Of a DNA stretch of 64,000 bases, positions 27,971 through 49,034 are shown piece by piece; within the stretch, counting starts at the first letter, position 1; each line of letters begins with the position of its first letter. The translations under genes and the position numbers were made by a program. Origin of the DNA: an uncultured Flavobacterium sp. GTDB lineage: Bacteria > Bacteroidota > Bacteroidia > Flavobacteriales > Flavobacteriaceae. The stretch covers positions 2,311 to 66,310 of the forward strand of contig CAZWAF010000002.1 in the NCBI GenBank assembly GCA_964631795.1, given 5' to 3'. The notes beneath the pieces were generated by a model. The model had not been told where the DNA came from and ran no database searches. It saw only the letters and a list, made by a program, of their open reading frames with translations.

Positions 27971-28498
27971 TTTTTACTTTGACCTTAAATTCAAGTATGA
28001 TTTTTATGATTTCATAGTGAAACAAAGTTATTTACTCACTTTAATAATTTGTTGATCAATAAATTCAAGGTTAATTATTTTCTTTGTATTCTACACTTCA
28101 TTTCCAGACAGAAATTTTCAAAAAATTAAATAATTTCATTTAATGATATTCATTTTTCAATGTTAATTGGAAATAACTTTTGGAGCCTATTTAAATTAAC
28201 AGAAAATTATTCTACAACTCTTTCTGCTATTTATGTTTCGATTCTAAGAAAACATATTTTATCTGATATAGTTTACAAAATGATATTAATGGACTATTAA
28301 AATTATAAGAAAACTCTTTTTATTAAGACTTTTTTTTCAATAAATAGCCATTTTATATTATGAAGTCTATGTGAGCAATATTCTTTTTTATAATATAAAT
28401 CATAAATTTATCTTAAAAAAGTAAATATTTATTACATTAATGTTTTTGTAGATAGTTTTCTGATAAAACTGTTTATAAAGCCAATAAAAAAAGTAAAT

Positions 28499-28542
28499 AT
28501 GATATTTATCATAATAAAGGACTATTATGTCTTTTATATTTA
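28499..28542 (+). promoter_or_regulatory. nirK promoter: FNR-like box, 9-6-9 palindrome and -7 box
   Basis: ATGAT-ATTT-ATCAT at 28499-28512; ATAAAGGAC-N6-GTCTTTTAT at 28514-28537; TATATTTA at 28535-28542. Confidence 0.7.
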
Positions 28543-34595: not shown

Positions 34596-34654
34596 TCTTC
34601 TAAATTATTTATTAACCGCAAGAGCTCATCTAGCAGTAAAATTTGGATTAAATT

Positions 34655-35119: not shown

Positions 35120-35129
35120 TATTATAAAA

Positions 35130-35579
35130 TTAAAATCCACCAAAGCGGATGAATGAACCGAAAACCAACATCAAAATTCCTATTGTTGTGACAGACAAAA
35201 TATGAAATGCCATTTCGGGCAATTTGTTAGAATCGTTTCTAAGTTTAGGTATGACACGTATTTGAGCACTTAAAGCAAAGATTACCGTCAGAAGCAATAA
35301 AAGTAATTTTGCAGAAATAACTTGTTCTATTGGAGTTTTGAACTGAAACCAATACTGAAAATTCACACCATATTTATAAGCCATTAAAACTCCTGAAATC
35401 ACTAACAAAATCAGAGCAGTCATCCCAATTGGTTCATATTTCTTTTCAAAATTTAAAATAATATTCTGATCTTTTTCTTTCAGCGCTTTTGGTAAATATC
35501 CAATCGAAAGCAATAAATGTCCTCCAACCCAAATAGTTGCACTCAAAAGATGAATGACTAACAGCAAATGATGATTCAT
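35130..35579 (-). CDS. CopD-like four-TM membrane protein
   Basis: HLLSATIWVGG, LLVISG, MAFHI; four hydrophobic segments. Confidence 0.6.
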   Translation of the reverse strand: MNHHLLLVIHLLSATIWVGGHLLLSIGYLPKALKEKDQNIILNFEKKYEPIGMTALILLVISGVLMAYKYGVNFQYWFQFKTPIEQVISAKLLLLLLTVIFALSAQIRVIPKLRNDSNKLPEMAFHILSVTTIGILMLVFGSFIRFGGF

Positions 35580-35621
35580 GTTTTTATAGAATAGGGGGTT
35601 TTAGTGAAAACCAGAAAAATA

Positions 35622-36335: not shown

Positions 36336-36346
36336 AATGGTTAAGA

Positions 36347-36520
36347 TCAATCAGGTTTAACGCATTTCATTTCCCGGAAATGAGTACGTTGTTTGTGTTC
36401 TCCTTTTTTGCCAATATTGAAACTTTCAACCGGACGATGATATCCCATTACCCGGGTATATACCAGACATTTTGTTCTTAAATGGGCATTTTGTTCTAAA
36501 ATAGGATTAGTTGTTTTCAT
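36347..36520 (-). CDS. Stand-alone glycyl-radical domain of class III RNR (57 aa, absent from the ORF track)
   Basis: Manual translation: MKTTNPILEQNAHLRTKCLVYTRVMGYHRPVESFNIGKKGEHKQRTHFREMKCVKPD. RVMGY corresponds to the NrdD C-terminal R-x-x-G-Y motif. Confidence 0.88.
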   Translation of the reverse strand: MKTTNPILEQNAHLRTKCLVYTRVMGYHRPVESFNIGKKGEHKQRTHFREMKCVKPD

Positions 36521-36626
36521 GTTTTTTAAGTTTTTGTTAGTTGTGGATTATTTTAGGTTCTAAGTTGTAAGTAATCTGTTAAATTGATATTGAAAAAGAT
36601 TAGATCTTCAAATAGGGTATCAAAAC

Positions 36627-38714
36627 TTAAAACGATTCGATTAATGCATCATCACATTTTGGGCAATATTCGTGTTCTCCATTCAAATAACCGTGAACCG
36701 GACATACGCTAAATACAGGTGTTACTGTTATGTAAGGTAATTTGAAATTCGATAACACTTTCTTTACAAACTGTTTACAGGCTTCAGGCGAACTTATTCT
36801 TTCACTCATATACAAATGCAAAACAGTTCCACCGGTATATTTGCATTGCAATTCATCCTGTAAAATCAAAGCTTCAAATGGATCTTCAGTATGATTTACA
36901 GGAATCTGAGAACTGTTGGTATAATAAATATTTTCTTCCTGTCCGGCCTGAAGAATTTCAGGAAAACGTTTCTTATCTTCTTTGGCAAAACGATAAGTAG
37001 TTCCTTCGGCAGGAGTAGCTTCCAGATTATATAAATTTCCGGTTTCTTCCTGAAATTCTTTCATGCGGTTTCGGATGTAATCCAAAATTTCTGAAGCAAA
37101 TTCAATTCCTGAAGATGAAGTAATATCTTCCTGATCTTTTGTAAAATTGATAATCATTTCATTCATCCCATTAACCCCGATGGTAGAAAAATGGTTTCTG
37201 AAATGAGGTAAATATCTTTTGGTATAAGGATACAATCCTCTATCGTACATTTCCTGAATAAAAACTCTTTTCTTTTCCAAAGTCGATTTGGAAATCAGCA
37301 ATAATCGATCTAATTGTCGATATAATTCGGCTTTATTTCCTTTGAATAAATAGCCCAAACGTGCCATATTGATGGTAACCACACCAATGCTTCCGGTCAT
37401 TTCGGCACTTCCAAAGAGTCCGTTTCCGCGTTTTAATAATTCTCGTAAATCGAGTTGCAAACGGCAACACATAGATCGCACAGCGTTGGGTTTATAAGCA
37501 TTCGGGTTTTCAACTTTATTACCGTTTTCGTCCAAATTATATTGGCTTCCTACAAAATTCTGAAAATAGGAGGAACCTATTTTGGCCGTATTTTCAAAAA
37601 GCAAATCGGTATTTTCTCCATTCCAATCAAATGCTTCGGTAATATTTACCGTAGGAATCGGAAATGTAAAAGGTTGTCCGTTGGCATCGCCTTCGGTCAT
37701 TATGGTGTAATACGCCTTATTTATCAGATTCATTTCTGTTTGAAAATGTTCATACCTCAAATCGGTAACTTTTTCTACGCCTCGAAGTTTGGCTCTTTGC
37801 AGAAGATCGTGTTGGAAATTACTCTCAAAAAGATGCAGGTCATTTTTGGTCGGAATCTGTTCTTTTAAATCATCGGGCACAACCCAATCCAAAGTAATAT
37901 TGGTAAAAGGCGATTGCCCCCAACGAGCCGGTACATTAAGATTATAAACAAAACTGCGAACGGCTTTCAATACGTCTTCAAAAGACAAATTATCTTTGAA
38001 AACATAAGGAGCCAGATAAGTATCAAACGAACTGAATGCCTGAGCACCGGCCCATTCGCTTTGCAAAATTCCGAGAAAATTAGCCATTTGTCCCAAAGCT
38101 TCCCTGAAATGGGAGGGAGCTTTGCTTTCGACTCTTCCGCGAACACCGTTGAAACCTTCGTTGAGCAAAACGCGCAAACTCCAACCGGCACAATATCCGG
38201 TCAGACAATCCAGATCATGAATATGAATATCACCATTTCGGTGCGCATAACCTTCTTCTTTTGAATAGACTTTGTCCAGCCAATAATTGGCAATGATTTT
38301 TCCGGCAACATTGTTGACCAAACCGGCATTGGAGTAGGAGGTATTGGCATTGGCATTAATGCGCCAATCGGTTTGAGAGATATATTCTTGTATAGTTTGT
38401 GTGCTGTCCACATAGGTTGTATCCTCGTTCAAACCGTTTACGTGTTCTCGTTGCAATTTTCGGGTATGTCGGTACAACATAAAAGAACGCATCACTTCGA
38501 AATATTGTTTTTCAAAGAGATTTTTCTCAATCAAATCCTGTATTTCCTCTACAGACCAGGTTTCTTTTTCCTGTAATTTTTCAATAATATTTTCAAAAAC
38601 ACTCTCATCAAATGCAATGTTTACACTTGTAAAGCTTTTTGCAATAGCATCTTTTATCTTAAAACATTCAAATGGCTTGTATTCTCCATTTCTTTTGATT
38701 ACGTATTTTTCCAT
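36627..38714 (-). CDS. nrdD: Class III ribonucleotide reductase, catalytic body lacking the glycyl-radical tail
   Basis: N-terminal ATP cone (VIKRNG), HIHDLD..GYCAGW, FTFPIPT, SMCCRL, EATPAEG, YTNSS, YTGGT, terminal CPVHG...CPKC, then stop. Confidence 0.92.
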   Translation of the reverse strand: MEKYVIKRNGEYKPFECFKIKDAIAKSFTSVNIAFDESVFENIIEKLQEKETWSVEEIQDLIEKNLFEKQYFEVMRSFMLYRHTRKLQREHVNGLNEDTTYVDSTQTIQEYISQTDWRINANANTSYSNAGLVNNVAGKIIANYWLDKVYSKEEGYAHRNGDIHIHDLDCLTGYCAGWSLRVLLNEGFNGVRGRVESKAPSHFREALGQMANFLGILQSEWAGAQAFSSFDTYLAPYVFKDNLSFEDVLKAVRSFVYNLNVPARWGQSPFTNITLDWVVPDDLKEQIPTKNDLHLFESNFQHDLLQRAKLRGVEKVTDLRYEHFQTEMNLINKAYYTIMTEGDANGQPFTFPIPTVNITEAFDWNGENTDLLFENTAKIGSSYFQNFVGSQYNLDENGNKVENPNAYKPNAVRSMCCRLQLDLRELLKRGNGLFGSAEMTGSIGVVTINMARLGYLFKGNKAELYRQLDRLLLISKSTLEKKRVFIQEMYDRGLYPYTKRYLPHFRNHFSTIGVNGMNEMIINFTKDQEDITSSSGIEFASEILDYIRNRMKEFQEETGNLYNLEATPAEGTTYRFAKEDKKRFPEILQAGQEENIYYTNSSQIPVNHTEDPFEALILQDELQCKYTGGTVLHLYMSERISSPEACKQFVKKVLSNFKLPYITVTPVFSVCPVHGYLNGEHEYCPKCDDALIESF

Positions 38715-38745
38715 CGCATCTGATTATTTATGTTTTTAATTACAT

Positions 38746-39477
38746 TTAGTATTCTGATTGAAATTTTGCTTCCATTTTTATAGCTTTAGGAAACAAAATA
38801 TTGTTTTCTAAGTGGATGTGTTTGTGCAAATCCTGTTCAAAATCATTCAACATGGCAAAAGTCACGCGATAGGTGTTGCAGGCATCAGCAGGAGAGGTAT
38901 AATCATTTGTTAATAAAGCAATTTTTCTAAAACGTTCCCCTTCGTTTTCATGCTCTTCTTTCATCATGTGAATCGGATTTTCAACACTGCCAAACGGAGG
39001 CATTGTAATGGCTTCTGAAGTCAAAATTGCTTTTGCCATTTTTTTGATAAACGGAAACAAAATTAACTCTTCTTTTTTCATGTGCTGAGTAAGTTCTCCT
39101 GCACAACCTCTGAATAGATCATTAATTTCAAACAATTCCGGATGTGAAGCCCCATGAACTTTGCATAATTTATCTAAAAACTGCAATAAAACCGGGATTT
39201 TTTCTTCCACATATCTATGGTGCGTTTTCTCTATGTAATCGGCTAATAAATCCAGAGGCCAGGATTTAAAATCAATTCCGTTATCGTTTTTTAATAACAA
39301 AACGGTTTCCAATTCCTGTTTCAAATCAGTAGCATCAACATCCTTTTTCTCACAAGCTTCCTCAATTGTTCTGTTTCCTTTGCAACAAAAATCTATTCCG
39401 TGTTTTGAAAAAACAGCTGCTGTTCTGAAATCCTGTGCTACTAATTCTCCTATTGTCATTCTCTCTAAAGTTTCCAT
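38746..39477 (-). CDS. ric: Iron-sulfur cluster repair di-iron protein
   Basis: GIDFCCKG (ScdA_N), THHRY, HMKKEELILFP, EHENEG, HIHLENNILFP. Confidence 0.93.
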   Translation of the reverse strand: METLERMTIGELVAQDFRTAAVFSKHGIDFCCKGNRTIEEACEKKDVDATDLKQELETVLLLKNDNGIDFKSWPLDLLADYIEKTHHRYVEEKIPVLLQFLDKLCKVHGASHPELFEINDLFRGCAGELTQHMKKEELILFPFIKKMAKAILTSEAITMPPFGSVENPIHMMKEEHENEGERFRKIALLTNDYTSPADACNTYRVTFAMLNDFEQDLHKHIHLENNILFPKAIKMEAKFQSEY

Positions 39478-39510
39478 ATGTTTTATTTTTAAATAATTAA
39501 ATTTTTGAAA

Positions 39511-39602
39511 CAAAACTAATCATTATTTTTTAAATAAAAGACAAAATTATCCGAATTAAATTATTAACCCTAAAGCGTTAATAAAAAAATGATTAAAATT
39601 AT
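39511..39602 (-). promoter_or_regulatory. ric-operon promoter region
   Basis: TAGTTTTG (minus) at 39511-39518; ATAAAAGAC-N6-ATCCGAATT at 39534-39557; ATGAT-TAAA-ATTAT at 39589-39602. Confidence 0.55.
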
Positions 39603-39667
39603 TTTTTTCTCTCATTCTTTGTCCATTTTATATTTATTAAAGAACTTCAAAAATGATTTTGTGTAAA

Positions 39668-39745
39668 ATGATTTTTATCATGTTTTAAACTTTTTATTGA
39701 TTCTAAATTTGTCACAAACAAATAAAAGATATTTTTATCCTTTAT
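39668..39745 (+). promoter_or_regulatory. norC promoter
   Basis: ATGAT-TTTT-ATCAT at 39668-39681; TAAATTTG at 39704-39711; ATAAAAGAT-N6-ATCCTTTAT at 39722-39745. Confidence 0.75.
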
Positions 39746-39787: not shown

Positions 39788-40219
39788 ATGCTTTCAAAAT
39801 CTCAGGCAAGGGCATTTTTTTTGGGAGGAACGCTGGTCACATTCTTAATATTTATAGGACTGACGATTTACTCATTCATGCCTTCAAACGATCAGACCAA
39901 TTATGGTAAGATTGACAAACAAGTAGTAAGGGGAAAAGAAATTTGGGAATCAAACAACTGCATGGGCTGCCATACCATCATGGGAGAAGGAGGATATTAT
40001 GCTCCCGAGCTGACTAAGGTAGTTGATCGCCGTGGCGAAGGCTATATTAAAGCCGTTTTAATGTCGCCAATTCCTTGGGCTCCAAAGGGACGAAAAATGG
40101 TAGTTTACAACATGAACGAAAAAGATGCCGATGCAGTTGTGGCTTACCTTAAATGGATAGGTAAAATCGACTTAAACGGATTTGACCGTGTTGTTTCACC
40201 TTTAGCCAAAGATGAATAA
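39788..40219 (+). CDS. norC: Nitric oxide reductase cytochrome c subunit
   Basis: N-terminal TM, NCMGCHT, EGGYYAPELT. Confidence 0.93.
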   Translation: MLSKSQARAFFLGGTLVTFLIFIGLTIYSFMPSNDQTNYGKIDKQVVRGKEIWESNNCMGCHTIMGEGGYYAPELTKVVDRRGEGYIKAVLMSPIPWAPKGRKMVVYNMNEKDADAVVAYLKWIGKIDLNGFDRVVSPLAKDE

Positions 40220-40302
40220 TTAATCAATGAACTAATTTACCGATGTACCAATTATTACATTGATCAATTGTTACATTTTCACATTAAAAAATTAAAAAAA
40301 TC

Positions 40303-41637
40303 ATGAAATACAAATCACAAAAAATAGCCTATTGGTTCTTTGGTCTGTGTATGCTTTTGTTTTCACTGCAAATCATTTACGGATTTATCATGGGCTTTGA
40401 CCGCATCGGAATCCAGGGATTACACGATATAATTCCTTTCAATACAGCAAGAGCAGTACATACTAATTTACTGGTAGTTTGGTTGCTCACCGGTTTTATG
40501 GGAGCCGCCTATTACATTATACCCGAAGAAGCACAACGAGAATTAATCAGCGTTAAATGGGCTTATATCCAGTTAATATCATTAGCTGTTGTAGGAGTTA
40601 TTGCCATAGTTGGCTTTCACTTTAATCATTGGGAAGGACGAAAATTCCTTGAAATTCCCAGAGAATTAGATTTCCTTGTGGTAATTAATGTATTGCTTTT
40701 CCTTGGACTAATTTTAGGAACACTCTTTACAGGAAAACGCAAAACCACCACCGCTCTGGTTTTATCAATGGGATTGCTGTTTGCAGCCTTATTGTATTTA
40801 CCTGGAATGATTTGGTTCGACAGTCAGGTAACAGATTCTTTCTTCCGTTGGTGGGTAGTTCACCTTTGGGTTGAAGGTGTTTGGGAATTAATCATGGGAG
40901 GTATTCTTTCATTCTTATTAATTAAATTGACAGGTGTTGACAGAGAGGTTATCGAAAAATGGTTGTATGTAATTATTGGACTTACTTTCCTTTCGGGAGT
41001 TTTAGGAACAGGACATCACTATTATTACATTGGAGTAAATAAAATCTGGTTGGTTGTTGGTGGTATTTTCTCAGCATTAGAGCCACTTGCTTTTCTTGCT
41101 ATGGCATTGTTTGCAGTTAATATGTACAGAAAAGGCGAAAAAAATCATCCAAACAAAACCGCTCTGTTCTGGACTATCGGTTCGGCTATCGTTTCATTCA
41201 TCGGAGCAGGATTGTTAGGTTTTGCACATACTTTGCCTCAAACCAATCTTTATACTCACGGAACTTTGGTTACTGCTTCGCACGGACATTATGCTTTCTG
41301 GGGAGCTTACGCCATGATTGTTTTGGCAATGATTAGTTATTCTTTGCCAAATTTAACCGGGCGTAAACGTTATGAAAGTTCTGTAGGTATGGCTTCATTT
41401 TGGTTGTCTAATATTGGAATTTTAGGAATGACGGTTGCCTTTGGTGTTGCCGGTGTTGCTCAGGTGTATTTGGAACGAAAAATGAAAATGGACTTCATGG
41501 ATGTTCAAAACGAAATCAGCATTCACTTTGTTGTATTGCTCATTTGCGCCACCATGTTTACCGTAGGAATTGCAATGTTTATCTATGATTTCTTCAAACA
41601 TGGTCAACCTTCAGATGAAGCGTTAATTATAAAATAA
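40303..41637 (+). CDS. norB: Nitric oxide reductase large subunit (cNOR)
   Basis: All canonical ligands are present: ARAVH, WWVVHLWVEGVWE, GTGHHYY, SALEP, ASHGH. Confidence 0.95.
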   Translation: MKYKSQKIAYWFFGLCMLLFSLQIIYGFIMGFDRIGIQGLHDIIPFNTARAVHTNLLVVWLLTGFMGAAYYIIPEEAQRELISVKWAYIQLISLAVVGVIAIVGFHFNHWEGRKFLEIPRELDFLVVINVLLFLGLILGTLFTGKRKTTTALVLSMGLLFAALLYLPGMIWFDSQVTDSFFRWWVVHLWVEGVWELIMGGILSFLLIKLTGVDREVIEKWLYVIIGLTFLSGVLGTGHHYYYIGVNKIWLVVGGIFSALEPLAFLAMALFAVNMYRKGEKNHPNKTALFWTIGSAIVSFIGAGLLGFAHTLPQTNLYTHGTLVTASHGHYAFWGAYAMIVLAMISYSLPNLTGRKRYESSVGMASFWLSNIGILGMTVAFGVAGVAQVYLERKMKMDFMDVQNEISIHFVVLLICATMFTVGIAMFIYDFFKHGQPSDEALIIK

Positions 41638-41742
41638 ATCCAATCTGTTCTTTTTTACCTGAACGCTTTGATAACTGTTTTTTAGAATTGCATTTCCAAA
41701 AAACAAAAGTTAAGGCGTTTGGGTTTTATTAAACCTTAGGAT

Positions 41743-41824
41743 TTAACCTCAAGGTTCGCAAGGTTTTTCTTTATGAAAACTGATGCTTTAAGCACGCAAG
41801 AATCTTTGCGGTCCTTGCGGTTAA
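41743..41824. repeat. Imperfect 21-bp inverted repeat between norB and norQ
   Basis: ttaacctcaaggttcgcaagg / ctttgcggtccttgcggttaa, 17/21 complementary. Confidence 0.7.
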
Positions 41825-41848
41825 ACTTCTAAGCTAAAACTTAAAAAA

Positions 41849-42628
41849 ATGTCACAAAACGCACCATACTACCACGCTGTGGGCAAAGAAAAAGAAGTCT
41901 TTGAACACGCACATAAAAACAAATTACCGTTTCTCTTGAAAGGCCCTACCGGAACCGGAAAATCCCGTTTCATTGAACACATGGCGCATAAATTGGATAA
42001 AAAAATCATCACAATCAGTTGTCATGAAGAAACTTCTTCTACCGATTTGATTGGCCGGTTTATCATCAAAGGTGCCGAAACCATTTGGCTCGATGGTCCG
42101 CTTACCACTGCCGTAAAGGAAGGGGCGATTATTTATCTTGACGAAGTTGCCGAGGCTCGTCCCGATGTTATTGTGGCGATTCACTCGCTCACCGATCACC
42201 GCCGCGAACTGTTCATCGATAAATTGGGCGAAAGAGTAAAGGCTCACGATAATTTTATGTTGGTGGCTTCTTTCAATCCTGGTTATCAGCGTGGATTTAA
42301 AGAGTTAAAACCCTCGACACGTCAGCGTTTCATTGCGGTTTCTTTCGAATATCCCGAAGCTAAAATCGAAGCCGAAATCCTGATTAATGAAACCAATATT
42401 GATTCTGACAATGCCAAAAAACTGGTTGCCATCGGAAATAAAATCAGAAACCTGACCGAATTGGGATTGACAGAAACCGTTTCGACCCGACTTTTGGTTG
42501 ATGCCGCCCGATTAATTCACAGCGGATTGCCAAAAAGATTATCGGTTCACGTGGCAGTCGTGGAACCACTGACAGATGACTTACAAACATTGGAAGCATT
42601 GAAGAATTTGTGTGATTTGATGATATGA
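41849..42628 (+). CDS. norQ: NorQ/NirQ/CbbQ MoxR AAA+ ATPase
   Basis: GPTGTGKS, DLIGRF, YLDE, SFNPGYQ, STRQRF, STRLLV. Confidence 0.92.
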   Translation: MSQNAPYYHAVGKEKEVFEHAHKNKLPFLLKGPTGTGKSRFIEHMAHKLDKKIITISCHEETSSTDLIGRFIIKGAETIWLDGPLTTAVKEGAIIYLDEVAEARPDVIVAIHSLTDHRRELFIDKLGERVKAHDNFMLVASFNPGYQRGFKELKPSTRQRFIAVSFEYPEAKIEAEILINETNIDSDNAKKLVAIGNKIRNLTELGLTETVSTRLLVDAARLIHSGLPKRLSVHVAVVEPLTDDLQTLEALKNLCDLMI

Positions 42629-42707
42629 TAGGTTGTTTGTTGATAGTTTGTGGTTTTAGCGCAAACAACCATCAACCACTAACCACTAACCACAAACAAT
42701 AAAGAAA

Positions 42708-44483
42708 ATGGGATTCGAAATAGACGAATATTTGGTTGGGAAGTTTTTCAAGCAATTGAAAAAGGCCAAAAAAGTAAGTCCCGAAGTAATAGCCAGAACG
42801 GTTACTCTTAGCGAAATAAAACCCAAGCTTACCATTTTGGCCAGAGCCTTAACCGGTGAAGCCATCGAGATTTTCCCGGCCGAGCGAGAAGGCGGTTACA
42901 AAAACAATAACTTTTTCCTTCCGGTTTCCTTTGCCGAATTGCCAACGAAAGAGGAGAATCACACTTTTTATCTTTTCAGGATTTTATATTTAAGCGTTCA
43001 GCATCGTTTAAACCTGAATTGGACGGCTATGGGAGACGAACCGACTCTGGAACTTTCGCAGCAAAAAGCATTGGAGTCATCCGAAGAAATTCTGACTGTA
43101 TTGTTTAATGAATTTTCGCTGGATAAAGAATTTCATGACGATGCCAGACTACATTTCATTGTAAAATCAGATGAAAAAAAGGCTCCTGATTTTTCATGGC
43201 TTTACGGAAAATGGATGCTGAATGATTTGGAACAAAATTCGGATGGCGTACTTGAGAATTTTTCGGATAAAACCAAGGAAGCCAACGAAAACCAGCCCAC
43301 AACCACATTAAAATCGAAAGCAGTTGAAGAAGTAAAAACGGTTGAACTAGACAAAAAACAACAGGAAGATTACGTCTTGCTGCACAATTTTGAAAAGGTT
43401 GAGACCGCCGACGAATTCAACGGTACCTGGCGTGATTTCGACGGTTCCGATGAACTCGAAGACCATCAGGATGCTCTGGAAGATTTGAATCTGAAGAATA
43501 CTGTGCGTGTCGATGATACGGCACATTCGGTTTATCAGGCCGATTTTATCGAGAACACCACCATATCCGAGAGTACGCAAATTGATTCGAAAGGATTTCA
43601 CTTAACCTATGACGAATGGGATTTCAGTAAACGCATGTACAGGGAAAACTTCTGCAAAGTGTACCCTAAATCGCTTCTGAAAACCGATCCGAATTATTAT
43701 AAAAACACGATTGCCCAGAATGCTTCGACTTTGCTTGGATTGCGCAAAATGCTGACCAATGTCAACAATAAAATGCAGCAGCAAAAACGCATGACCCAAG
43801 GCGATGAGTTTGACATAGATGCCATAACCGATTTGTTTGTGGATGTGCATTCTAAACGCACACCGTCGGAGAATCTATACATTTCAAACAGAAAGAAAGA
43901 AAAAGATTTGTCGATTCTGATTTTGCTTGATGTAAGTCTTTCTAGCGATGGATATGCCGCCGGCAACAGAGTAATTGATGTGGAGAAAAAGGTTTCGATT
44001 CTTTTCGGGGAAATACTTAATGAGTTTAGCATCGATTTTTCAATTGACAGTTTTTATTCCAAGACCCGCAATTTCTCGACCTATTTAACGATCAAGGATT
44101 TTGACGAAAACTGGAATACTGCCAAACATAAAGTGGGTGCGGTCGAGCCAAGCGGCTACACCCGAATTGGCGCGGCTTTGCGTCACGCCGGCGCCCGACT
44201 CGACAAAAGAAACACCAAAAACAAATGGATCATTGTGATTTCTGACGGAAAACCCAATGATTACGACAAATATGAAGGCAAATACGGAATCAATGACGTG
44301 AAACAGGCGCTGCGTGAACTCAACAGCAGAAACATTAATTCCTACGGGCTTGCCATCGAAGCGCAGGCAAAGTATTATTTGCCTCAAATGTTCGGACAAA
44401 ACCACTATGAGATTTTGACTACTCCAGTGGAGTTGCTGAAATCGCTGGTAAAACTATATGAAAAAATTAAATATCAGAAGTAG
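42708..44483 (+). CDS. norD: NorD VWA-domain activation protein
   Basis: YDEWD, MIDAS-type LLDVSLSSD, YTRIGAALRHA, ISDGKPND. Confidence 0.88.
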   Translation: MGFEIDEYLVGKFFKQLKKAKKVSPEVIARTVTLSEIKPKLTILARALTGEAIEIFPAEREGGYKNNNFFLPVSFAELPTKEENHTFYLFRILYLSVQHRLNLNWTAMGDEPTLELSQQKALESSEEILTVLFNEFSLDKEFHDDARLHFIVKSDEKKAPDFSWLYGKWMLNDLEQNSDGVLENFSDKTKEANENQPTTTLKSKAVEEVKTVELDKKQQEDYVLLHNFEKVETADEFNGTWRDFDGSDELEDHQDALEDLNLKNTVRVDDTAHSVYQADFIENTTISESTQIDSKGFHLTYDEWDFSKRMYRENFCKVYPKSLLKTDPNYYKNTIAQNASTLLGLRKMLTNVNNKMQQQKRMTQGDEFDIDAITDLFVDVHSKRTPSENLYISNRKKEKDLSILILLDVSLSSDGYAAGNRVIDVEKKVSILFGEILNEFSIDFSIDSFYSKTRNFSTYLTIKDFDENWNTAKHKVGAVEPSGYTRIGAALRHAGARLDKRNTKNKWIIVISDGKPNDYDKYEGKYGINDVKQALRELNSRNINSYGLAIEAQAKYYLPQMFGQNHYEILTTPVELLKSLVKLYEKIKYQK

Positions 44484-44492
44484 TTAGTGAAA

Positions 44493-44583
44493 AGTGGTTA
44501 GTGACCAGTAATTAGTGATTAGCTTTTAACAGTTATCATTCTATTACCTTTTGCTAATCACTAGTTACTAATTACCAATCACT
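44493..44583. repeat. Second AGTGATT-heptamer inverted repeat
   Basis: Arms 44493-44523 and 44553-44583; inner ends AGTGATTAGC/GCTAATCACT match the 4455 element. Confidence 0.8.
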
Positions 44584-44595
44584 AATTAGAAAAAA

Positions 44596-45561
44596 ATGAA
44601 CGAGATTTTAAATGCAACGACTCTAGCTGAGGGTCATCCGGTACAAATTTATTTTCAGGAAAGAGAATTAATTGAAAAGCTATTAATAGAATTATCTGCG
44701 ACCAATCCGGCCGAAGACATACAGAAATACATCAATGTTTTCAACCAATTGGGGACTATTGAAAAAAGATTTGCCCGAAAAGAGAACCAATTATTTCCAT
44801 TTCTGGAAAAGAAAGGTTGGAACGGGCCATCACAGGGAATGTGGTCGTTTCATGACAACCTGAGAGAGCAAATAAGACTGATTCGTTACTATATTAAAAC
44901 ACAAAACACCGAAAAGATTACCAATAACACGGTTTATCTGGTTGAAGGAATTATAAGGCTGTTGGGCGTTGAGGAAAACATTTTGTTTCCGAATTCTTTG
45001 GACTTATTGGAAGAAAATGATTGGATAGCAATGCGCAAAGGCGAAGAAGAAATCGGCTGGATGCACACAGAAAATCCTGCGGCTTACCCAACGGAGGAAT
45101 ACATTCACCCAAGTCAGGATTTTACCAAAAGGGAACTTACGTTTTCTACCGAAAACACTTCGCACTATGACGAGGGTTATATGACGGTGGAGCAGGTGAA
45201 TCTTCTTTTCAGAACCATGCCGGTCGATTTGACTTATGTTGATGAGAACGATAAGGTGATTTTTTATAATAGGGGAGAAGATCGCGTGTTCCCGAGAAGC
45301 GCCGGTATTATTGGGCGCGAAGTTAAATTCTGTCATCCGCCAAAAAGTGTTGGAACGGTTCTTCAGATTTTGGAAGAATTCAGAAAAGGAACCAAAAACG
45401 AAGCTTCTTTCTGGATTAACTATAAAGAAAGACTGATTTACATCCGCTATTTTGCCGTGAGAGATGCTGAGAAAAAGTATAGGGGAGTAATCGAAATGTC
45501 GCAGGATATTACTGAGATAAAAACAATTGAAGGCGAAAACCGATTATTGAATTGGAATTAA
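44596..45561 (+). CDS. Hemerythrin-like plus PAS domain protein (DUF438-type)
   Basis: GHPV, ARKENQLFP, FHD, EENILFP, then PAS 'DLTYVDENDKVIFYN...GREVKFCHPP'. Confidence 0.8.
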   Translation: MNEILNATTLAEGHPVQIYFQERELIEKLLIELSATNPAEDIQKYINVFNQLGTIEKRFARKENQLFPFLEKKGWNGPSQGMWSFHDNLREQIRLIRYYIKTQNTEKITNNTVYLVEGIIRLLGVEENILFPNSLDLLEENDWIAMRKGEEEIGWMHTENPAAYPTEEYIHPSQDFTKRELTFSTENTSHYDEGYMTVEQVNLLFRTMPVDLTYVDENDKVIFYNRGEDRVFPRSAGIIGREVKFCHPPKSVGTVLQILEEFRKGTKNEASFWINYKERLIYIRYFAVRDAEKKYRGVIEMSQDITEIKTIEGENRLLNWN

Positions 45562-45572
45562 GCCTAAATATT

Positions 45573-45682
45573 TTTCACAGAGATTCGCAAAGAATTCGCA
45601 GAGTTACACGAAATTTTTAAGGTTTAAATATTCATTTTTTACTTTGAGAATCTCCGTGGATTCTTTGTAAATCTTCGTGGAA
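45573..45682. repeat. Imperfect ~41-bp inverted repeat between the PAS gene and norE
   Basis: cacagagattcgcaaagaattcgcagag / ctccgtggattctttgtaaatcttcgtg. Confidence 0.65.
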
Positions 45683-45699
45683 TAAAAAAATAATAATAA

Positions 45700-46281
45700 A
45701 TGCAAACAACACAAATAGATTATAAAAACTTTTATTATCCGCCGGGGGGAATCCTGATGTGGATAATCATATTTCTTGAACTCATCACCTTTGGGATGGC
45801 ATTGGTCGCATTTGTCTTTTACGGAAAAGAACAGCCTGAATTGTTTCACAATTCCCGACTACAACTCAACACCACAATGGGAGCCATTAATACCGTGTTT
45901 CTGCTTACAAGCGGTTACTTTATGGCCAATGCCGTTCATGAATTTAAAGACAATAATCGTAAAAAATCGTCTTTGTATTTCAAGCTGACCATGTTTGGAG
46001 GAATTTTGTTTCTGATTGTAAAAAGCTTTGAATATTACCATAAAATTCAGGCGGGGATTTCATTGGAAACCAATATATTTTTCAGTTTCTATTGGATGCT
46101 GACAGCTTTTCATCTTATCCACGTTATCATAGGTTTGGTGATTTTAGTCTGGACCAATTACGGAATGATGAAAAACGATTCAGATACCGAAGTAGAAGAC
46201 ATTGAAGCCTGCGCTGCGTTCTGGCACATGTGCGATTTGATCTGGCTGCTTTTGTTTCCTGTATTGTACTTAATCTTTTAA
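45700..46281 (+). CDS. norE: NorE (cytochrome oxidase subunit III-like)
   Basis: PPGGILMW, E..TF, NT.FLLTS, FH..HV, AAFWHMCDLIW. Confidence 0.82.
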   Translation: MQTTQIDYKNFYYPPGGILMWIIIFLELITFGMALVAFVFYGKEQPELFHNSRLQLNTTMGAINTVFLLTSGYFMANAVHEFKDNNRKKSSLYFKLTMFGGILFLIVKSFEYYHKIQAGISLETNIFFSFYWMLTAFHLIHVIIGLVILVWTNYGMMKNDSDTEVEDIEACAAFWHMCDLIWLLLFPVLYLIF

Positions 46282-46284
46282 AAA

Positions 46285-46530
46285 ATGAAAAAAACACTCA
46301 ACCTTAGCTTCGGATTATTGATTTTGCTGACATTTATTACAGCATTGATTTCTAATACTTCAAAATTTACCGAATTTGCAATTGGCTTAATAATGGCAAT
46401 TTCGGCAATCAAATTCATATTGGTTTCATTTCAGTTTATGGAATTAAAAAAGGCTAATATCTTTTGGAAAATCAGCCTTTTGTTTATTTTGGTTTTAATA
46501 ACCTTACCTATTATTTTAATTTTCATCTGA
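46285..46530 (+). CDS. Small three-TM oxidase subunit IV-like protein (NorF-like)
   Basis: 'KFILVSFQFMELK' motif; follows norE. Confidence 0.7.
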   Translation: MKKTLNLSFGLLILLTFITALISNTSKFTEFAIGLIMAISAIKFILVSFQFMELKKANIFWKISLLFILVLITLPIILIFI

Positions 46531-46666: not shown

Positions 46667-48049
46667 TTAAGATTCTTCATTTTTTATAACCTTAAAATTC
46701 AAATGCTTTTTTTCTGATACTTCTTTTGTACAATATGCTTTTACCAATTCTCGGATCAACGGAATAACAATCAACCATAATCCTACGAAAATCCCTATAC
46801 CGAAAAATAAAAACGAAATATAATACCAATGAAGTGAGGTTTGCATTTCGGAAAAAGGAATATCTCTGGTAAAATACATCCAGTTGCTTTTTTTAATACC
46901 GGCCAATAACAAACTAATCCAAAATCCTAATAATGAAATATTGAAAATGGAATATCCTATTCTCAATCGATTCATTTGAAAATTAAAATTCGGATTCACT
47001 TTTGAAACTATAAATAAGACCGATGCCAGTAAAATAGTGGTGTTGATTCCGATGGTAGTTCCCATTGAATGCGCCACGGTAATATGCGTGCCGTGTGTAA
47101 AAAAATTAATTGAAGGAATACTGAACAACAAAGCGAGAATCAGATTCAGGAAAACCCAAATATCGGCCGTTACCAGAAACTTGTAAGCAAGGAAATAGTC
47201 TTTTTTATTAGATTCGGTCAAAGATTTTCTCCAGGAATAAATCATGTGAAAAAGAATTATCCATTCGGTCATACTGATGCCGTAAGCGACAATTCGTACC
47301 CAAGGTTCGGTTGGAATAATATAAACATGGTGTGCCCAACCGAACATCAGATTGGTTAATCCCAAAAAATAGAAAAAGAAAGATTCTCTTTGTCTTCCGA
47401 TAGAATCGTCTCCTTTTATTTTTGCCATTAAAAAAACAGCAGTTCCATAAACCAGCATATTCCAGGAACCTACAAAAGAACCTCCGGCTTTCCATTGAAT
47501 GGCTAGTGTTTTAATGAAATTTTCTTTAAAATAGGGCATAAGCCAAAAATAAGCTTCGCTTAAATGATAGGTCATAAAGACAATTCCGGTTCCCCACATC
47601 CAATAATATACAGGCCAGTTGACCACTTTGCCAACCATGGTTTTTAAATAATTGATCCCGAAAAGCAACCACCCGATTAAGATTGGAAAAATAAGCATAG
47701 GAGGGAATTCCAGATATTCTTTTCCGCCAAAATTTCCGGAGAAATAGGAAATATAAATTCCGATTCCTGTAATCATAAAAATCAAAAAATGCGCTTTGGT
47801 TATTTTTTTTGAAAATATGTGCAAGGATTCTGTATTGGAAACATAAAAATAAATACCACCCGTTGCGCACAGAATAATCCAAGAAATTACGGTGGTCACG
47901 TGAAGCGGCCTCAAAGCAGAAAAGGGAAGTATTTCTTTGATAAACTCAGGGAGCAAATATTGCATTCCGGACAGAATACCGAAGAAAACCCCCGTTAATA
48001 ATGCAAAAAGAGCAGTGATAACAAATAATAAAGCTGTTTTATTCTTCAT
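46667..48049 (-). CDS. Divergent NorB-like heme-copper oxidase superfamily subunit I
   Basis: Colinear with NorB: PFSALRPLH, GGKEYLEFP, GWAHHVY, SMTEW, PSINFFTHGTHITVAHSM. Start at Met 48049. Confidence 0.88.
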   Translation of the reverse strand: MKNKTALLFVITALFALLTGVFFGILSGMQYLLPEFIKEILPFSALRPLHVTTVISWIILCATGGIYFYVSNTESLHIFSKKITKAHFLIFMITGIGIYISYFSGNFGGKEYLEFPPMLIFPILIGWLLFGINYLKTMVGKVVNWPVYYWMWGTGIVFMTYHLSEAYFWLMPYFKENFIKTLAIQWKAGGSFVGSWNMLVYGTAVFLMAKIKGDDSIGRQRESFFFYFLGLTNLMFGWAHHVYIIPTEPWVRIVAYGISMTEWIILFHMIYSWRKSLTESNKKDYFLAYKFLVTADIWVFLNLILALLFSIPSINFFTHGTHITVAHSMGTTIGINTTILLASVLFIVSKVNPNFNFQMNRLRIGYSIFNISLLGFWISLLLAGIKKSNWMYFTRDIPFSEMQTSLHWYYISFLFFGIGIFVGLWLIVIPLIRELVKAYCTKEVSEKKHLNFKVIKNEES

Positions 48050-48275
48050 TTTTATACTGTATTTCAACCCAACCATTAGGTTTAATGGAGGCATTGTGAT
48101 TAGGATAATAACCTGATTGATCTACTTCTTTCAAAAAAATAACCAGAGCTTCTTTCTCTTTTTCCGAAAAATGAAATTCGGGCATTGCTTTAATTCCACT
48201 ATTTAGGAAAGCCTTGATGTACTCTGGCCCTTTGGTTTTGTCTGAATAAGTATTGGTCAAATCAGGACCAAGGTA
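48039..48275 (-). pseudogene. N-terminally deleted NorC-like cytochrome c
   Basis: Homology starts at YLGPDLT (NorC YYAPELT) and includes KGPEYIKAFL and MP. No TM helix or CxxCH is present; the track's GTG lies inside the -7 box. Confidence 0.8.
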
Positions 48276-48282
48276 TATTATT

Positions 48283-48336
48283 TTAAAGAACACAAATATC
48301 TTTTATACAAAATCGATATAGTATGACATTTATCAG
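48283..48336 (-). promoter_or_regulatory. Promoter of the NorC'/NorB' operon
   Basis: ATGAC-ATTT-ATCAG at 48323-48336; GATATTTG (minus) at 48293-48300; minus-strand ATAAAAGAT-N6-GTTCTTTAA at 48283-48306. Confidence 0.7.
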
Positions 48337-48368
48337 TTATAAGAGATTTAGTGATAAATAATAATAAT

Positions 48369-48487
48369 CCGTTGGGTGTAAGTTGCCGAAGATAAATTCT
48401 CGTCAGTTCGAGTAAATTTTCAGAAAAAGCGAACAGCATTTTCTGAAAATTTACTCGAACTGACGATTCGTATAATTCCCCCAACGG
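48369..48487. repeat. REP/MITE-like element with a perfect 27-bp inner palindrome
   Basis: Arms 48401-48427 and 48439-48465 are exact reverse complements; outer ccgttggg/cccaacgg. Confidence 0.85.
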
Positions 48488-48540
48488 GTTAATAATATTC
48501 TTTATTGAGGATTCTTTTTGCGGAAATCAAAACAAATAAA

Positions 48541-48599: not shown

Positions 48600-49034
48600 T
48601 TAGTATCTCAAGAAGGTATCTCCTGATTTTATACCCAGAGCTAATTCTTCGAGATTGGTATTTTCGAGCATATAAGCCAATTCATTTCTGATTGATTTGA
48701 ATTTTTCGTGCACCGGACAAGGATGTTCTTCAGAACATTGACTAAGTCCCAAACCGCAACCGGTAAAAACAGAATCTCCATCAATAGCAGTTACGATTTC
48801 AGCTAATTTAATCTGACTCATTCTCTGTCTAGGAATTTCAAAGCCACCGCCAACTCCCTTAATAGAATCAATAATATTGTTTCTGGACAAAATTTGCAGA
48901 ATTTTTGCCGTAAAAGCTTCAGGAGAGTCAATTTTTTTGGCAATATCTTTAAGGCCGGTTCTATTATCCTGATAAGATTCCGATGCTATAAAAATAGTTG
49001 CCCGGATTGCGTACTCACATGTTTTTGAAAACAT
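48600..49034 (-). CDS. Rrf2-family Fe-S transcriptional regulator (NsrR/IscR-like)
   Basis: MFSKTCEYAIRA, S.KGVGGGF, CGLGLSQCSEEHPCPVH (three Cys). Confidence 0.9.
   Translation of the reverse strand: MFSKTCEYAIRATIFIASESYQDNRTGLKDIAKKIDSPEAFTAKILQILSRNNIIDSIKGVGGGFEIPRQRMSQIKLAEIVTAIDGDSVFTGCGLGLSQCSEEHPCPVHEKFKSIRNELAYMLENTNLEELALGIKSGDTFLRY

What the first reader, a model, noticed from the sequence alone, without database searches (positions are those of the whole stretch)
46667..48049. Second NorB-like heme-copper protein with a rewired active site
Seen in sequence: the protein aligns motif by motif with the canonical NorB 5 kb away. It keeps the helix-II His (RPLH), the Ca-site Glu (EYLEFP), the His-His pair (GWAHH), the helix-VIII Glu (SMTEW) and the high-spin heme His. 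However, WWVVHLWVEGVWE becomes QWKAGGSFVGSWN with no gaps, and HGH becomes HSM. Established (P. aeruginosa cNOR numbering): this means H207 to Gly, E211 to Val, E215 to Asn and H349 to Met. An FeB ligand and two conserved Glu are lost, and the low-spin heme would be His/Met. A new H-x-x-E (YHLSE) appears in helix V. Inference: it is probably not an ordinary NO reductase. It could be a different-chemistry enzyme, an electron-transfer module or an NO sink, and its operon carries the same regulatory boxes as nir and nor. Divergent NOR-like families have been catalogued in HCO surveys, so novelty must be checked.
Basis: partly seen in the sequence, partly recalled or inferred. Interest (0 to 1): 0.85.

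Follow-up and report, generated by a model that had tools for sequence, protein, structure and literature searches.

The report
Divergent NorB-like haem protein family
This gene belongs to a widespread but biochemically untested family of membrane haem proteins related to nitric-oxide reductase, with a conserved, rebuilt active site; in this strain a 207-bp deletion has removed half of its cytochrome c partner, so this copy is probably crippled.

Summary
Gene X (46667-48049, minus strand, 460 aa) is a haem-copper-oxidase subunit I homologue. It is 21% identical to the canonical NorB 5 kb away. It keeps Pseudomonas aeruginosa (Pa) cNOR residues H60, E135, H258/H259, E280 and H347. It has no His or Glu in helix VI and has Met in place of H349.

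These changes are not strain decay. They are invariant or nearly so in 120 close homologues and about 80 distant cluster representatives, and relatives were found in 229 species genomes, mostly Flavobacteriales. The signature is Q185-W-K187...G190...N197, H240-H241, E262, E165 and M329.

Every related locus with enough upstream sequence has a NorC-like monohaem cytochrome c upstream of X. Promoters share an FNR-type box with nirK and norC. Neighbours are NO and anoxia genes.

In this window a 207-bp deletion removes the start, membrane anchor and CxxCH of that cytochrome. The deletion is polymorphic in nature.

The family is probably the uncharacterised cNOR-related family that Murali et al. 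2024 flagged as a putative N2O reductase. The best guess is a cytochrome c-dependent reductase of NO or another N-oxide with a non-canonical active site. Function is untested.

The parts
46667..48049 (-). Gene X: a 460-aa HCO subunit I homologue, predicted as 12 transmembrane helices. Residues present: H50 and M329 (low-spin haem), H327 (high-spin haem), H240/H241, E262, K187, G190, N197, E165, E111.
   Evidence: The ORF is intact. Against the 98%-identical allele in L081 there are 29 synonymous and 7 non-synonymous codon differences, none at invariant sites.
48039..48275 (-). Remnant of the NorC-like monohaem cytochrome c partner gene. It corresponds to residues 68-144 only. The membrane anchor and the CxxCH haem site are missing. 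Its stop codon overlaps the ATG of X (ATGAAGAATAA).
   Evidence: tblastn of an intact partner matches only residues 68-144 here. The alignment with 25 intact partners is. The Pfam Cytochrome_CBB3 match covers profile positions 24-68 only.
48276..48277 (-). Junction of a 207-bp deletion relative to the intact allele (L081 positions 135-341). The deletion removes the start codon and codons 1-67 of the cytochrome c gene.
   Evidence: blastn of L081 against the window. Contigs of public runs X1 and X2 span the junction without a gap. Run X3 carries the intact start.
48322..48337 (-). FNR/CRP-type box ACTGATAAATGTCATA. It lies at -67 from the cytochrome c start in the intact allele.
   Evidence: Same position and near-identical sequence as boxes in L005, L007, L012, L022, L061 and L063. 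The motif is enriched in 67 cytc-X promoters.
48286..48302 (-). Second box, AAGATATTTGTGTTCTT. It contains the 13-mer ATAAAAGATATTT shared with the norC promoter. It may be an Rrf2 operator, or it may overlap the -7 promoter element.
   Evidence: Related A(A/G)GAT-N6-(A/G)TCTT boxes occur at -30 to -35 in L005-L007, L022 and L026. Who binds it is inference.
48600..49034 (-). Rrf2-family regulator carrying a Cys-x7-Cys-x5-Cys motif, read as a candidate Fe-S-cluster site. It is a candidate NsrR-like NO sensor and lies upstream of the X operon.
   Evidence: Pfam Rrf2 at 3.6e-24 and NCBIfam rrf2_super. An Rrf2 gene lies within 10 kb of X in 29 of 55 loci.
39788..46530 (+). Context: the canonical nor cluster. 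It comprises norC, norB (40303-41637), norQ, norD, a hemerythrin-PAS gene, a COX3-like gene (norE-like) and a COX4_pro-like gene (norF-like). It converges on X.
   Evidence: In many related loci the same genes precede cytc-X on the same strand.
39667..39682 (+). FNR-type box AATGATTTTTATCATG in the norC promoter.
28498..28513 (+). Perfect FNR-type box TATGATATTTATCATA, 80 bp before the nirK-cytochrome c fusion gene (28578-30047).

Best explanation
X is the catalytic subunit of a two-subunit, cytochrome c-dependent membrane reductase. It descends from the cbb3/cNOR branch of the haem-copper superfamily but is a discrete family.

Proposed mechanism:
- Electrons enter through a membrane-anchored NorC-like monohaem c subunit.
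- They pass to a low-spin haem b with His50/Met329 ligation. This ligation probably raises its potential (an inference, taken from what Murali et al. say of nNOR).
- They reach a high-spin haem, whose proximal ligand is His327.
- The distal pocket has lost the helix VI metal His and Glu. Instead it offers His240, His241, Glu262 (= Pa E280), Lys187 and Asn197, with an obligatory Gly190 at the former His position.
- Either a 2-His-1-carboxylate metal site or a metal-free Lys/Glu/His pocket is possible.

Regulation and role. The operon is switched on with nirK and norCB by an FNR-type activator, and probably by an Rrf2 (NsrR-like) regulator, under anoxic, NO-generating conditions. The enzyme most likely reduces NO or another small N-oxide at the periplasmic face.

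Shown here: homology, ligand pattern, family-wide conservation, the partner subunit, the regulatory boxes and the gene context.
Inferred: cofactor content, substrate and direction of proton supply.

This window. A 207-bp deletion has removed the anchor and haem site of the c subunit. This copy probably cannot receive electrons and is likely non-functional, although the X ORF is intact.
For: - Fold and nearest relatives: Pfam COX1; phmmer hits only cNOR NorB in the PDB (4xyd_A at 1e-14, 3o0r_B at 7e-8). The AF2 model has pLDDT 82.5 and pTM 0.87, and its top Foldseek hits are 4xyd_A and 3o0r_B, then cbb3 CcoN, then qNOR.
- Discrete family: an HMM built from distant representatives scores X-type ORFs at 366-539 bits, NorB at 108-127 and CcoN at 66-83.
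- Conservation: 120 homologues of at least 60% identity and 76 full-length representatives down to 23% identity keep H50, E111, E165, Q185-W186-K187, G190, N197, H240/H241, Y243, E262, H319, H327 and M329.
- Covariation: a deep subfamily swaps K187, G190 and E262 for H187, D190 and A262. This suggests these positions form one functional site.
- Partner: a NorC-like cytochrome c with an anchor, CxxCH and a Met ligand lies upstream in every locus with enough upstream sequence, most often with a 10-11-nt overlap (37 of 68 pairs). Some distant members are fused to FixO-like and dihaem c domains.
- Regulation: FNR-type box enrichment of 34/67 against 4.4 expected, mostly at -59 to -71, and the same box before nirK and norC in the window.
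- Context: Rrf2, ScdA/RIC, nrdDG, nadAB, norCBQD-EF and the nos cluster. The distant subfamily sits with ubiU-ubiV-ubiD-ubiT and an NnrS-like gene.
- Purifying selection on X: 29 synonymous and 7 non-synonymous codon differences.
- Deletion.
Against: - No biochemical data exist for any member.
- Two of the four canonical FeB ligands are gone. NO reduction by the cNOR mechanism is therefore not guaranteed.
- Many genomes carry X next to a complete canonical norCBQD (17 to 23 of 55 loci). A plain second NOR looks redundant there.
- The AF2 model is least confident exactly at residues 170-190, so the geometry of K187 and G190 is unknown.
- The gene context points to anoxia and NO stress in general and does not identify the substrate.
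- The only published suggestion for what appears to be this family is N2O reduction, not NO reduction (PMC11214002).
Confidence: 0.45

Rival explanations
1. X is a haem-based, copper-independent nitrous oxide reductase. This is the function Murali et al. 2024 tentatively assign to an uncharacterised HCO family closely related to cNOR, on the basis of the membrane-bound, acetylene- and sulfide-insensitive N2O reductase activity of Flexibacter canadensis.
For: - The paper's family matches in position (next to cNOR in the C-family branch) and in size (293 GTDB genomes, against 229 species genomes here). Its cited organism belongs to Bacteroidota, the phylum that dominates here.
- nos genes lie within 10 kb of X in 22 of 55 loci.
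- The His/Met haem fits a high-potential acceptor.
Against: - Identity of the two families could not be tested.
- X often co-occurs with a NosZ/nosDFYL cluster, so it is not a replacement for NosZ.
- No chemical precedent for N2O reduction at such a site was found in the literature searched.
- Regulation by NO-type boxes does not discriminate between substrates.
Confidence: 0.17
2. X is a non-catalytic or degenerate paralogue: a haem-binding electron sink, an NO-binding buffer or sensor, or a pseudo-enzyme left after loss of the non-haem metal.
For: - Two metal ligands are lost.
- X is often adjacent to a complete canonical nor cluster.
- In this window its partner is deleted without decay of X.
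Against: - The replacement residues K187, G190, N197, E262 and E165 are themselves invariant across members as little as 23-30% identical to X, and they covary in a subfamily.
- A dedicated cytochrome c subunit is always present, and in some members it is fused to the X domain.
- X occurs in many loci with no canonical nor gene nearby.
Confidence: 0.1
3. X reduces O2 or a peroxide. It would act as a micro-oxic scavenger or peroxidase protecting anaerobic enzymes such as NrdD, NadA and NosZ, rather than acting on an N-oxide.
For: - X belongs to the C-family branch and shares the CcoN-like motifs RPLH and QW.
- Its neighbours are O2-sensitive anaerobic enzymes.
- FNR-type control is typical of high-affinity oxidases.
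Against: - X has no CuB His triad.
- The only conserved Tyr near the HH pair, Y243, is shared with NorB.
- Murali et al. state that O2 reduction in HCOs requires the cross-linked Tyr.
- These genomes already encode CcoNO.
Confidence: 0.08
4. X carries out different N-oxide chemistry, such as NO dismutation (making O2 and N2, or N2O) or nitrite or hydroxylamine reduction at a Lys/His/Glu haem pocket.
For: - The active site is unlike any characterised NOR.
- X is linked to pathways whose aerobic alternatives need O2 (nadAB, ubiTUV, nrdDG).
Against: - This is pure speculation.
- Those neighbours are the O2-independent isoenzymes, which argues against internal O2 supply.
- The known NOD candidates derive from qNOR, not cNOR.
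Confidence: 0.05
5. The substitutions are strain-specific decay of a duplicated norB.
For: The partner gene is damaged in this window.
Against: - The same residues are found in 120 close homologues, about 80 distant cluster representatives and relatives in 229 species genomes.
- dN/dS is low.
Confidence: 0.01

Closest known systems
cNOR catalytic subunit NorB (P. aeruginosa 3O0R, Roseobacter denitrificans 4XYD)
   Same: - Nearest solved structures by both sequence and fold.
- Twelve-helix HCO subunit I fold.
- Retains H60, E135 (Ca site), H258/H259, E280 and H347.
- Has a NorC-like monohaem c partner with the G-x-GG-Y motif.
- Shares FNR-type regulation with nirK and nor.
   Different: - Only 17-21% identical.
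- No H207, E211 or E215: Gly, Val and Asn stand there.
- The low-spin haem is His/Met rather than bis-His.
- New invariant residues are K187, Q185 and E165.
- It forms a separate family by HMM score (X-type 366-539 bits against NorB 108-127).
Uncharacterised 'N2O red' HCO family of Murali et al. 2024 (PNAS, PMC11214002)
   Same: - Described as an HCO family closely related to cNOR, with a novel active site and no biochemical characterisation.
- The organism whose N2O-reducing activity the paper cites (Flexibacter canadensis) belongs to Bacteroidota.
- Comparable size: 293 GTDB genomes, against 229 species genomes here.
   Different: - Identity with family X is inferred, not shown. The paper's main text gives no residues and its datasets were not available.
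- The proposed N2O-reductase function is untested.
- It is not favoured by the frequent co-occurrence of X with NosZ clusters.
cbb3 oxidase subunit CcoN
   Same: - Same branch of the superfamily.
- Shares the RPLH (helix II) and QW (helix VI) motifs, and the four-residue spacing between the helix VI metal-ligand position and the following Gly or Ala.
- Some X members are fused to FixO-like and dihaem c domains, like CcoNOP.
   Different: - Gly replaces the CuB His.
- Nothing suggests a His-Tyr cross-link.
- Scores are lower than to NorB.
nNOR and gNOR (B-family-derived putative NORs, Murali et al. 2024)
   Same: - nNOR also has a His/Met low-spin haem.
- gNOR is the precedent for replacing an active-site His (by Asp). 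X subfamily 2 also has Asp at that position.
   Different: - Both are related to B-family oxidases and have cupredoxin-type subunit II partners.
- nNOR keeps the full cNOR ligand set.
- X is C-family/cNOR-related and has a NorC-like partner.
NOD (putative NO dismutase, qNOR-derived)
   Same: An NOR relative with an altered non-haem metal site and an unproven function.
   Different: NOD branches within qNOR. From general knowledge, not tested here, qNORs are about 750-800 aa with a fused N-terminal domain. X is a 460-aa subunit with a separate cytochrome c.

Membership tests
canonical cNOR NorB | HCO subunit I fold with 12 transmembrane helices | tested here: met
   Pfam COX1 at 1e-27. AF2 model with pTM 0.87; Foldseek TM-score 0.77-0.83 to 4xyd_A and 3o0r_B.
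canonical cNOR NorB | Three His ligands of FeB (Pa H207, H258, H259) | tested here: not met
   H258/H259 are present as H240/H241. Helix VI has no His: Gly189 or Gly190 stands at H207.
canonical cNOR NorB | Glu ligand of FeB (E211) and the neighbouring E215 | tested here: not met
   Val193 (or a gap) and Asn197 stand there. N197 is invariant in the family.
canonical cNOR NorB | Bis-His low-spin haem b (H60, H349) | tested here: not met
   H60 is present as H50. H349 is Met329 in 120 of 120 close homologues and in nearly all representatives.
canonical cNOR NorB | His ligand of haem b3 (H347), E280 and the Ca-site Glu (E135) | tested here: met
   H327, E262 and E111 are conserved across the family: E111 and H327 are invariant in the 120 close homologues, and all three have only a few exceptions among the distant representatives; E262 is Ala in subfamily 2.
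canonical cNOR NorB | NorC-type membrane-anchored monohaem c partner encoded upstream | tested here: inconclusive
   Met for the family: all loci with enough upstream sequence have it. Not met in this window: the gene lacks codons 1-67, including CxxCH.
canonical cNOR NorB | NO reductase activity (2 NO to N2O) | not testable with these tools
   No member has been characterised. No paper was found.
'N2O red' HCO family (Murali et al. 2024) | HCO family closely related to cNOR within the C-family branch | tested here: met
   Nearest characterised relatives are cNOR NorB, then CcoN.
'N2O red' HCO family (Murali et al. 2024) | Match to the authors' family HMM or tree leaves (Datasets S3/S4), and presence in Flexibacter (Solitalea) canadensis | not testable with these tools
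   The supplements are not held.
'N2O red' HCO family (Murali et al. 2024) | N2O reductase activity | not testable with these tools
   This is a hypothesis in the paper only.
cbb3 oxidase CcoN | CuB His triad | tested here: not met
   X has QWKAGG where the CcoN of L030 has QWWYGH.
cbb3 oxidase CcoN | Helix VII Tyr cross-linked to the helix VI CuB His | not tested
   The His partner of the cross-link is absent from X. The Tyr position itself was not examined here; its location in cbb3 rests on general knowledge.
nNOR | B-family-related subunit I with a cupredoxin-type subunit II and the full cNOR-like 3-His + Glu site | tested here: not met
   The partner is a NorC-like cytochrome c. The site lacks a His and a Glu. 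Only the His/Met haem is shared.
NOD | qNOR-derived | tested here: not met
   X is 460 aa with a separate cytochrome c subunit. qNOR structures rank below cNOR and cbb3. That qNOR-type proteins are about 750-800 aa with a fused N-terminal domain is general knowledge, not tested here.

The most novel reading that the evidence does not exclude
The X family catalyses chemistry that no characterised haem-copper enzyme performs. One candidate is copper-independent reduction of N2O to N2, a second biological N2O sink besides NosZ. Another is a different N-oxide transformation at a haem/Lys/Glu/His pocket without the canonical non-haem metal. The covarying K187/G190/E262 and H187/D190/A262 solutions would then be two versions of that new active site.
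Probability: 0.22. Interest if true: 0.9.

Novelty: new member of a known kind. Interest (0 to 1): 0.55.

Why it matters
NosZ is described in the literature seen here as the only known biological N2O sink. NO reductases of the haem-copper superfamily catalyse production of N2O.

Relatives of X were found in 229 species genomes, most of them labelled Flavobacteriales, from isolates and metagenome-assembled genomes of varied origin. Its cluster representatives run into the hundreds. The gene is currently annotated either as 'cbb3-type cytochrome c oxidase subunit I' or as 'nitric oxide reductase subunit B'. Inventories built on those names will therefore miscount either oxidases or NORs.

If the family reduces NO, it adds an unrecognised N2O source with an unusual active site: two His plus a carboxylate and a Lys, and a His/Met haem. 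If it reduces N2O, it is a new greenhouse-gas sink.

The active-site covariation and the natural deletion allele found here make the question directly testable.

Tried and rejected
- Strain-specific decay. Rejected by conservation in close and distant homologues and by low dN/dS.
- The apparent absence of the cytochrome c partner in about 9 related loci. This was an artefact of my ORF calling; tblastn finds it in all of them.
- nadA-nadB as direct functional partners of X. They lie within 10 kb in 47 to 49 of 55 loci and are directly downstream in 26. I read this instead as membership of a common anoxia gene island, alongside nrdDG and, in subfamily 2, ubiTUV. This reading rests partly on general knowledge that many Bacteroidota use the O2-dependent kynurenine route to NAD. 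It is not tested here.
- norQD adjacent to cytc-X without norCB (L034, L037), as evidence that X needs the FeB chaperone. Inconclusive, because those contigs end too close to the genes.
- Pfam, NCBIfam and PDB searches for the recurrent 600-aa neighbour 'c8' and the 406-aa membrane protein at 33375-34595. Nothing was found.
- Taxonomy of distant representatives through cluster look-up. No organism names were returned.
- RNA evidence. No genuine RNA-seq run holds the locus.
- Literature searches for a characterised member or another description of the family. Only Murali et al. 2024 turned up.
- A window-wide count of the ATGAT-N4-ATCAT box with one mismatch allowed. It is not above chance (10 observed against 6.4 expected). 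The evidence for the box rests on the two perfect copies in the nirK and norC promoters and on the cross-genome enrichment.
- Active-site geometry from the AF2 model. No coordinates are available, and confidence is lowest at residues 170-190.
Full report
OBSERVATION

The ORF at 46667-48094 (minus strand) encodes a haem-copper-oxidase (HCO) subunit I homologue (Pfam COX1, 1e-27). This ATG overlaps the stop of the upstream ORF (ATGAAGAATAA). I call the 460-aa product X and number it from that Met.

X is 21% identical to the canonical NorB of the window (40303-41637) over 404 residues, E 3e-17.

The HMMER alignment to P. aeruginosa NorB (3o0r_B) can be counted residue by residue and reproduces the published numbering:
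- H60 = H50
- H258/H259 = H240/H241
- E280 = E262
- H347 = H327
- H349 = M329
- E215 = N197

The alignment to the Roseobacter enzyme (4xyd_A) places GKEYLEFP on GREFLEQP, so the Ca-site Glu E135 = E111.

The helix VI segment AIQWKAGGSFVGSWNMLVYG contains no His, Glu or Asp. H207 and E211 are therefore missing in any register.

The register itself is uncertain by one residue. An ungapped alignment to cNOR (WWVVHLWVEGVWE) puts G189 at H207. HMMER, and an ungapped alignment to a flavobacterial CcoN (QWWYGHNAV), put the invariant G190 there.

FAMILY-WIDE CONSERVATION

These substitutions are not strain-specific decay.
- The protein search returned 2276 hits. The best 120 (at least 60% identity; those that carry an organism name are Bacteroidota or Chlorobi) all share the substitutions.
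- The genome scan found relatives in 229 species genomes. Most of the 80 loci kept are labelled Flavobacteriales: Flavobacterium, Tenacibaculum, Aequorivita, Xanthomarina, Formosa, Winogradskyella, Crocinitomix and Fluviicola.
- An exhaustive phmmer search against 1.8 billion cluster representatives gave 124 clusters at E no greater than 1e-30.

In an alignment of 76 full-length representatives (down to 23% identity), together with five close homologues, X and nine canonical NorBs, the following are invariant or have only a few exceptions: H50, E111, E165, Q185-W186-K187, G190, N197, H240-H241, Y243, E262, H319, H327 and M329. E165 is universal.

A deep subfamily of 11 representatives at 23-28% identity has H187, D190, H242 and A262 in place of K187, G190, a variable residue 242 and E262. 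It still has M329 and N197. This coordinated swap suggests that positions 187, 190 and 262 belong to one site. It also suggests a carboxylate ligand that can sit either on helix VI or on helix VIII.

An HMM built only from the distant representatives scores X-type ORFs at 366-539 bits, canonical NorB at 108-127 and CcoN at 66-83. The family is therefore discrete, and cNOR is its nearest characterised relative. The AlphaFold model (pLDDT 82.5, pTM 0.87) matches 4xyd_A and 3o0r_B best, then cbb3 CcoN, then qNOR. Confidence is lowest at residues 170-190, exactly where the site is rebuilt, so no geometry can be claimed.

THE PARTNER AND THE DAMAGE IN THIS WINDOW

In every related locus with enough upstream sequence, X is preceded by a gene for a cytochrome c of about 144 aa. 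This protein has an N-terminal membrane anchor, a C-x-S-C-H-Q haem site, the NorC-like G-L-G-G-Y motif and a Met-Pro ligand motif. Its gene most often overlaps X by 10-11 nt (37 of 68 pairs). Some distant members are single polypeptides of about 800 aa: X plus a FixO-like domain plus a dihaem cytochrome c. X is therefore the catalytic subunit of a cytochrome c-dependent complex, not an isolated haem protein.

In the window only residues 68-144 of this cytochrome are encoded (48039-48275). Comparison with a contig whose X is 98% identical at the protein level (97% over the aligned DNA; L081) shows a clean 207-bp deletion with its junction at 48276/48277. The deletion removes the start codon and codons 1-67, that is, the anchor and the CMSCH site. 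The promoter is left intact.

Public assemblies show that both alleles exist in nature. Contigs of two runs span the junction without a gap. A third run carries the intact start.

X itself is intact and differs from the L081 allele by 29 synonymous and 7 conservative non-synonymous codons, none at invariant positions.

REGULATION AND CONTEXT

Two perfect ATGAT-N4-ATCAT palindromes occur in the window, before the nirK-cytochrome c fusion gene (28498-28513) and before norC (39667-39682). The X promoter has ACTGATAAATGTCATA (48322-48337), at -67 from the cytochrome c start in the intact allele.

Across 67 cytc-X promoters, the 16-mer TATGAT-N4-ATCATA is found with at most 2 mismatches in 34, against 4.4 expected from shuffles. 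Most copies lie at -59 to -71. That position and the palindromic form are what one expects of a Crp/Fnr-type activator site (general knowledge), and a Crp/Fnr gene is a frequent neighbour.

A second box, A(A/G)GAT-N6-(A/G)TCTT, occurs at -30 to -35 or at -85 to -88 in about 15 loci. Related sequences occur in the window's X and norC promoters. It may be the operator of the adjacent Rrf2 regulator (48600-49034), but that is inference.

Among the 55 loci of at least 15 kb, the following lie within 10 kb of X:
- nadA, 47
- nadB, 49
- Rrf2, 29
- ScdA/RIC, 29
- nrdD, 26
- norQ/norD, 23
- nos genes, 22
- canonical norB, 17

A 45%-identical member keeps nadAB, Rrf2 and nosFY nearby. The deep subfamily sits in a high-GC locus behind two Peptidase_U32 genes, a UbiD gene and an SCP2 gene, and in front of an NnrS-like gene. 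I read the first four as ubiU, ubiV, ubiD and ubiT of the O2-independent ubiquinone pathway; that identification rests on general knowledge.

The common theme is life without oxygen in the presence of NO.

MECHANISM

Shown here:
- an HCO subunit I with both haem sites
- a dedicated c-type electron-entry subunit
- a conserved, non-canonical distal constellation
- co-regulation with nirK and nor

Inferred: electrons flow from haem c to haem b (His/Met, likely raised potential) to the high-spin haem. Substrate is reduced at a pocket formed by H240, H241, E262, K187 and N197, with Gly190 making room. Either a 2-His-1-carboxylate metal site or a metal-free acid-base pocket is possible. E165 lies near the periplasmic end of helix V in the model (helix 147-169), at about the same depth as K187. 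Together with E111 it may belong to a periplasmic proton path, as in cNOR (general knowledge).

I consider NO, or another small N-oxide, the most likely substrate (0.45). N2O reduction is the main rival (0.17). In this window the enzyme has probably lost its electron input.

COMPARISON WITH WHAT IS KNOWN

X fails the defining tests for canonical cNOR (helix VI His, E211, E215, bis-His haem b) and for cbb3 oxidase (CuB triad). It is not nNOR or gNOR, which are B-family-related with cupredoxin-type subunits, although nNOR shares the His/Met haem and gNOR is the precedent for a replaced active-site His. It is not NOD, which is qNOR-derived.

Murali et al. 2024 (PMC11214002) list one further uncharacterised family. 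[quoted passage not shown] Its position in the superfamily and its size fit X, and the organism it cites belongs to the phylum that dominates here. I could not verify identity, because the main text gives no residues and the datasets are not held. No other description and no biochemical work was found. Neither Pfam nor NCBIfam gave X a family-specific match, only generic COX1 and sub-threshold ccoN hits. Public annotations call it either 'cbb3-type cytochrome c oxidase subunit I' or 'nitric oxide reductase subunit B'.

VERDICT

The inference 'not an ordinary NOR' is sound. The gene is a new member of a catalogued but functionally uncharacterised family, and this particular operon is damaged.

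The interest lies in the family: its substrate is an open and testable question with relevance to N2O budgets. The site signature, the covarying subfamily, the conserved FNR-type box and the natural deletion allele found here give concrete handles. Interest 0.55.

Noticed in passing
window 48369-48490: A palindromic element of about 120 bp lies between the Rrf2 terminator and the X promoter. It has two perfect 27-nt arms (48401-48427 and 48439-48465) and AACCCGTTGGG...CCCAACGG ends. In public assemblies it has 25- to 35-fold excess depth and many different flanks. It is therefore a multicopy MITE/REP-like repeat of this organism, although only one copy lies in the window.
   Followed up: partly
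window 40303-41637 (canonical NorB), residue K114: The canonical NorB here, and in 8 other flavobacterial loci, has Lys (GRKFLE) at the position of the Ca-site Glu E135 of P. aeruginosa NorB. The divergent X family keeps the Glu invariantly. This may mean a different way of bridging the haem propionates in flavobacterial cNOR.
   Followed up: no
L002:7648-9456 and homologues ('c8'); absent from the window: A protein of about 600 aa with no Pfam, NCBIfam or PDB match lies within 10 kb of cytc-X in 25 of 55 loci, often directly adjacent. It also occurs next to a 45%-identical member (L082 1787-3622). Function unknown. It may be an accessory factor.
   Followed up: partly
related loci (L001-L080); not in the window: nadA-nadB (quinolinate synthase and L-aspartate oxidase) follow X on the same strand in 26 loci and lie within 10 kb in 47 to 49 of 55, in several different arrangements. 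I read this as an O2-independent NAD route grouped with nrdDG in an anoxia island. That reading is not tested.
   Followed up: partly
L084 3610-10297, L085: The deep subfamily of X (QWHxxD, HHH, A262) sits in a high-GC locus directly after two Peptidase_U32 genes, UbiD and an SCP2 gene, and before an NnrS-like gene. The first four look like ubiU, ubiV, ubiD and ubiT of O2-independent ubiquinone synthesis.
   Followed up: partly
proteins P0144, P0151, P0160, P0200: These are polypeptides of about 800 aa in which an X-type domain is fused to a FixO-like monohaem domain and a dihaem cytochrome c, resembling a CcoN-O-P fusion.
   Followed up: partly
L082 15532-16884 (minus strand): A second, very divergent COX1-family protein (451 aa, HAHAG and SHH motifs) lies next to an FeS_assembly_P gene and a DUF2249/DUF1858 gene, in the genome of a 45%-identical X member. 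Its type was not determined.
   Followed up: no
window 33375-34595 (minus strand): A 406-aa polytopic membrane protein with no Pfam or NCBIfam match. It is homologous (32% identity) to cluster 'c7', which lies near X in 26 of 55 loci, usually beside a Crp/Fnr gene and a fasciclin gene.
   Followed up: partly
window 28578-39513: The rest of the denitrification and anoxia island: a nirK-cytochrome c fusion, a cytochrome c, an FGE-sulfatase-like gene, SCO1, an alginate-export-like porin, a hemerythrin, a CopD-like gene, nrdG, nrdD and ScdA/RIC. No nosZ, nadAB or Crp/Fnr gene is present in the 64-kb window.
   Followed up: partly
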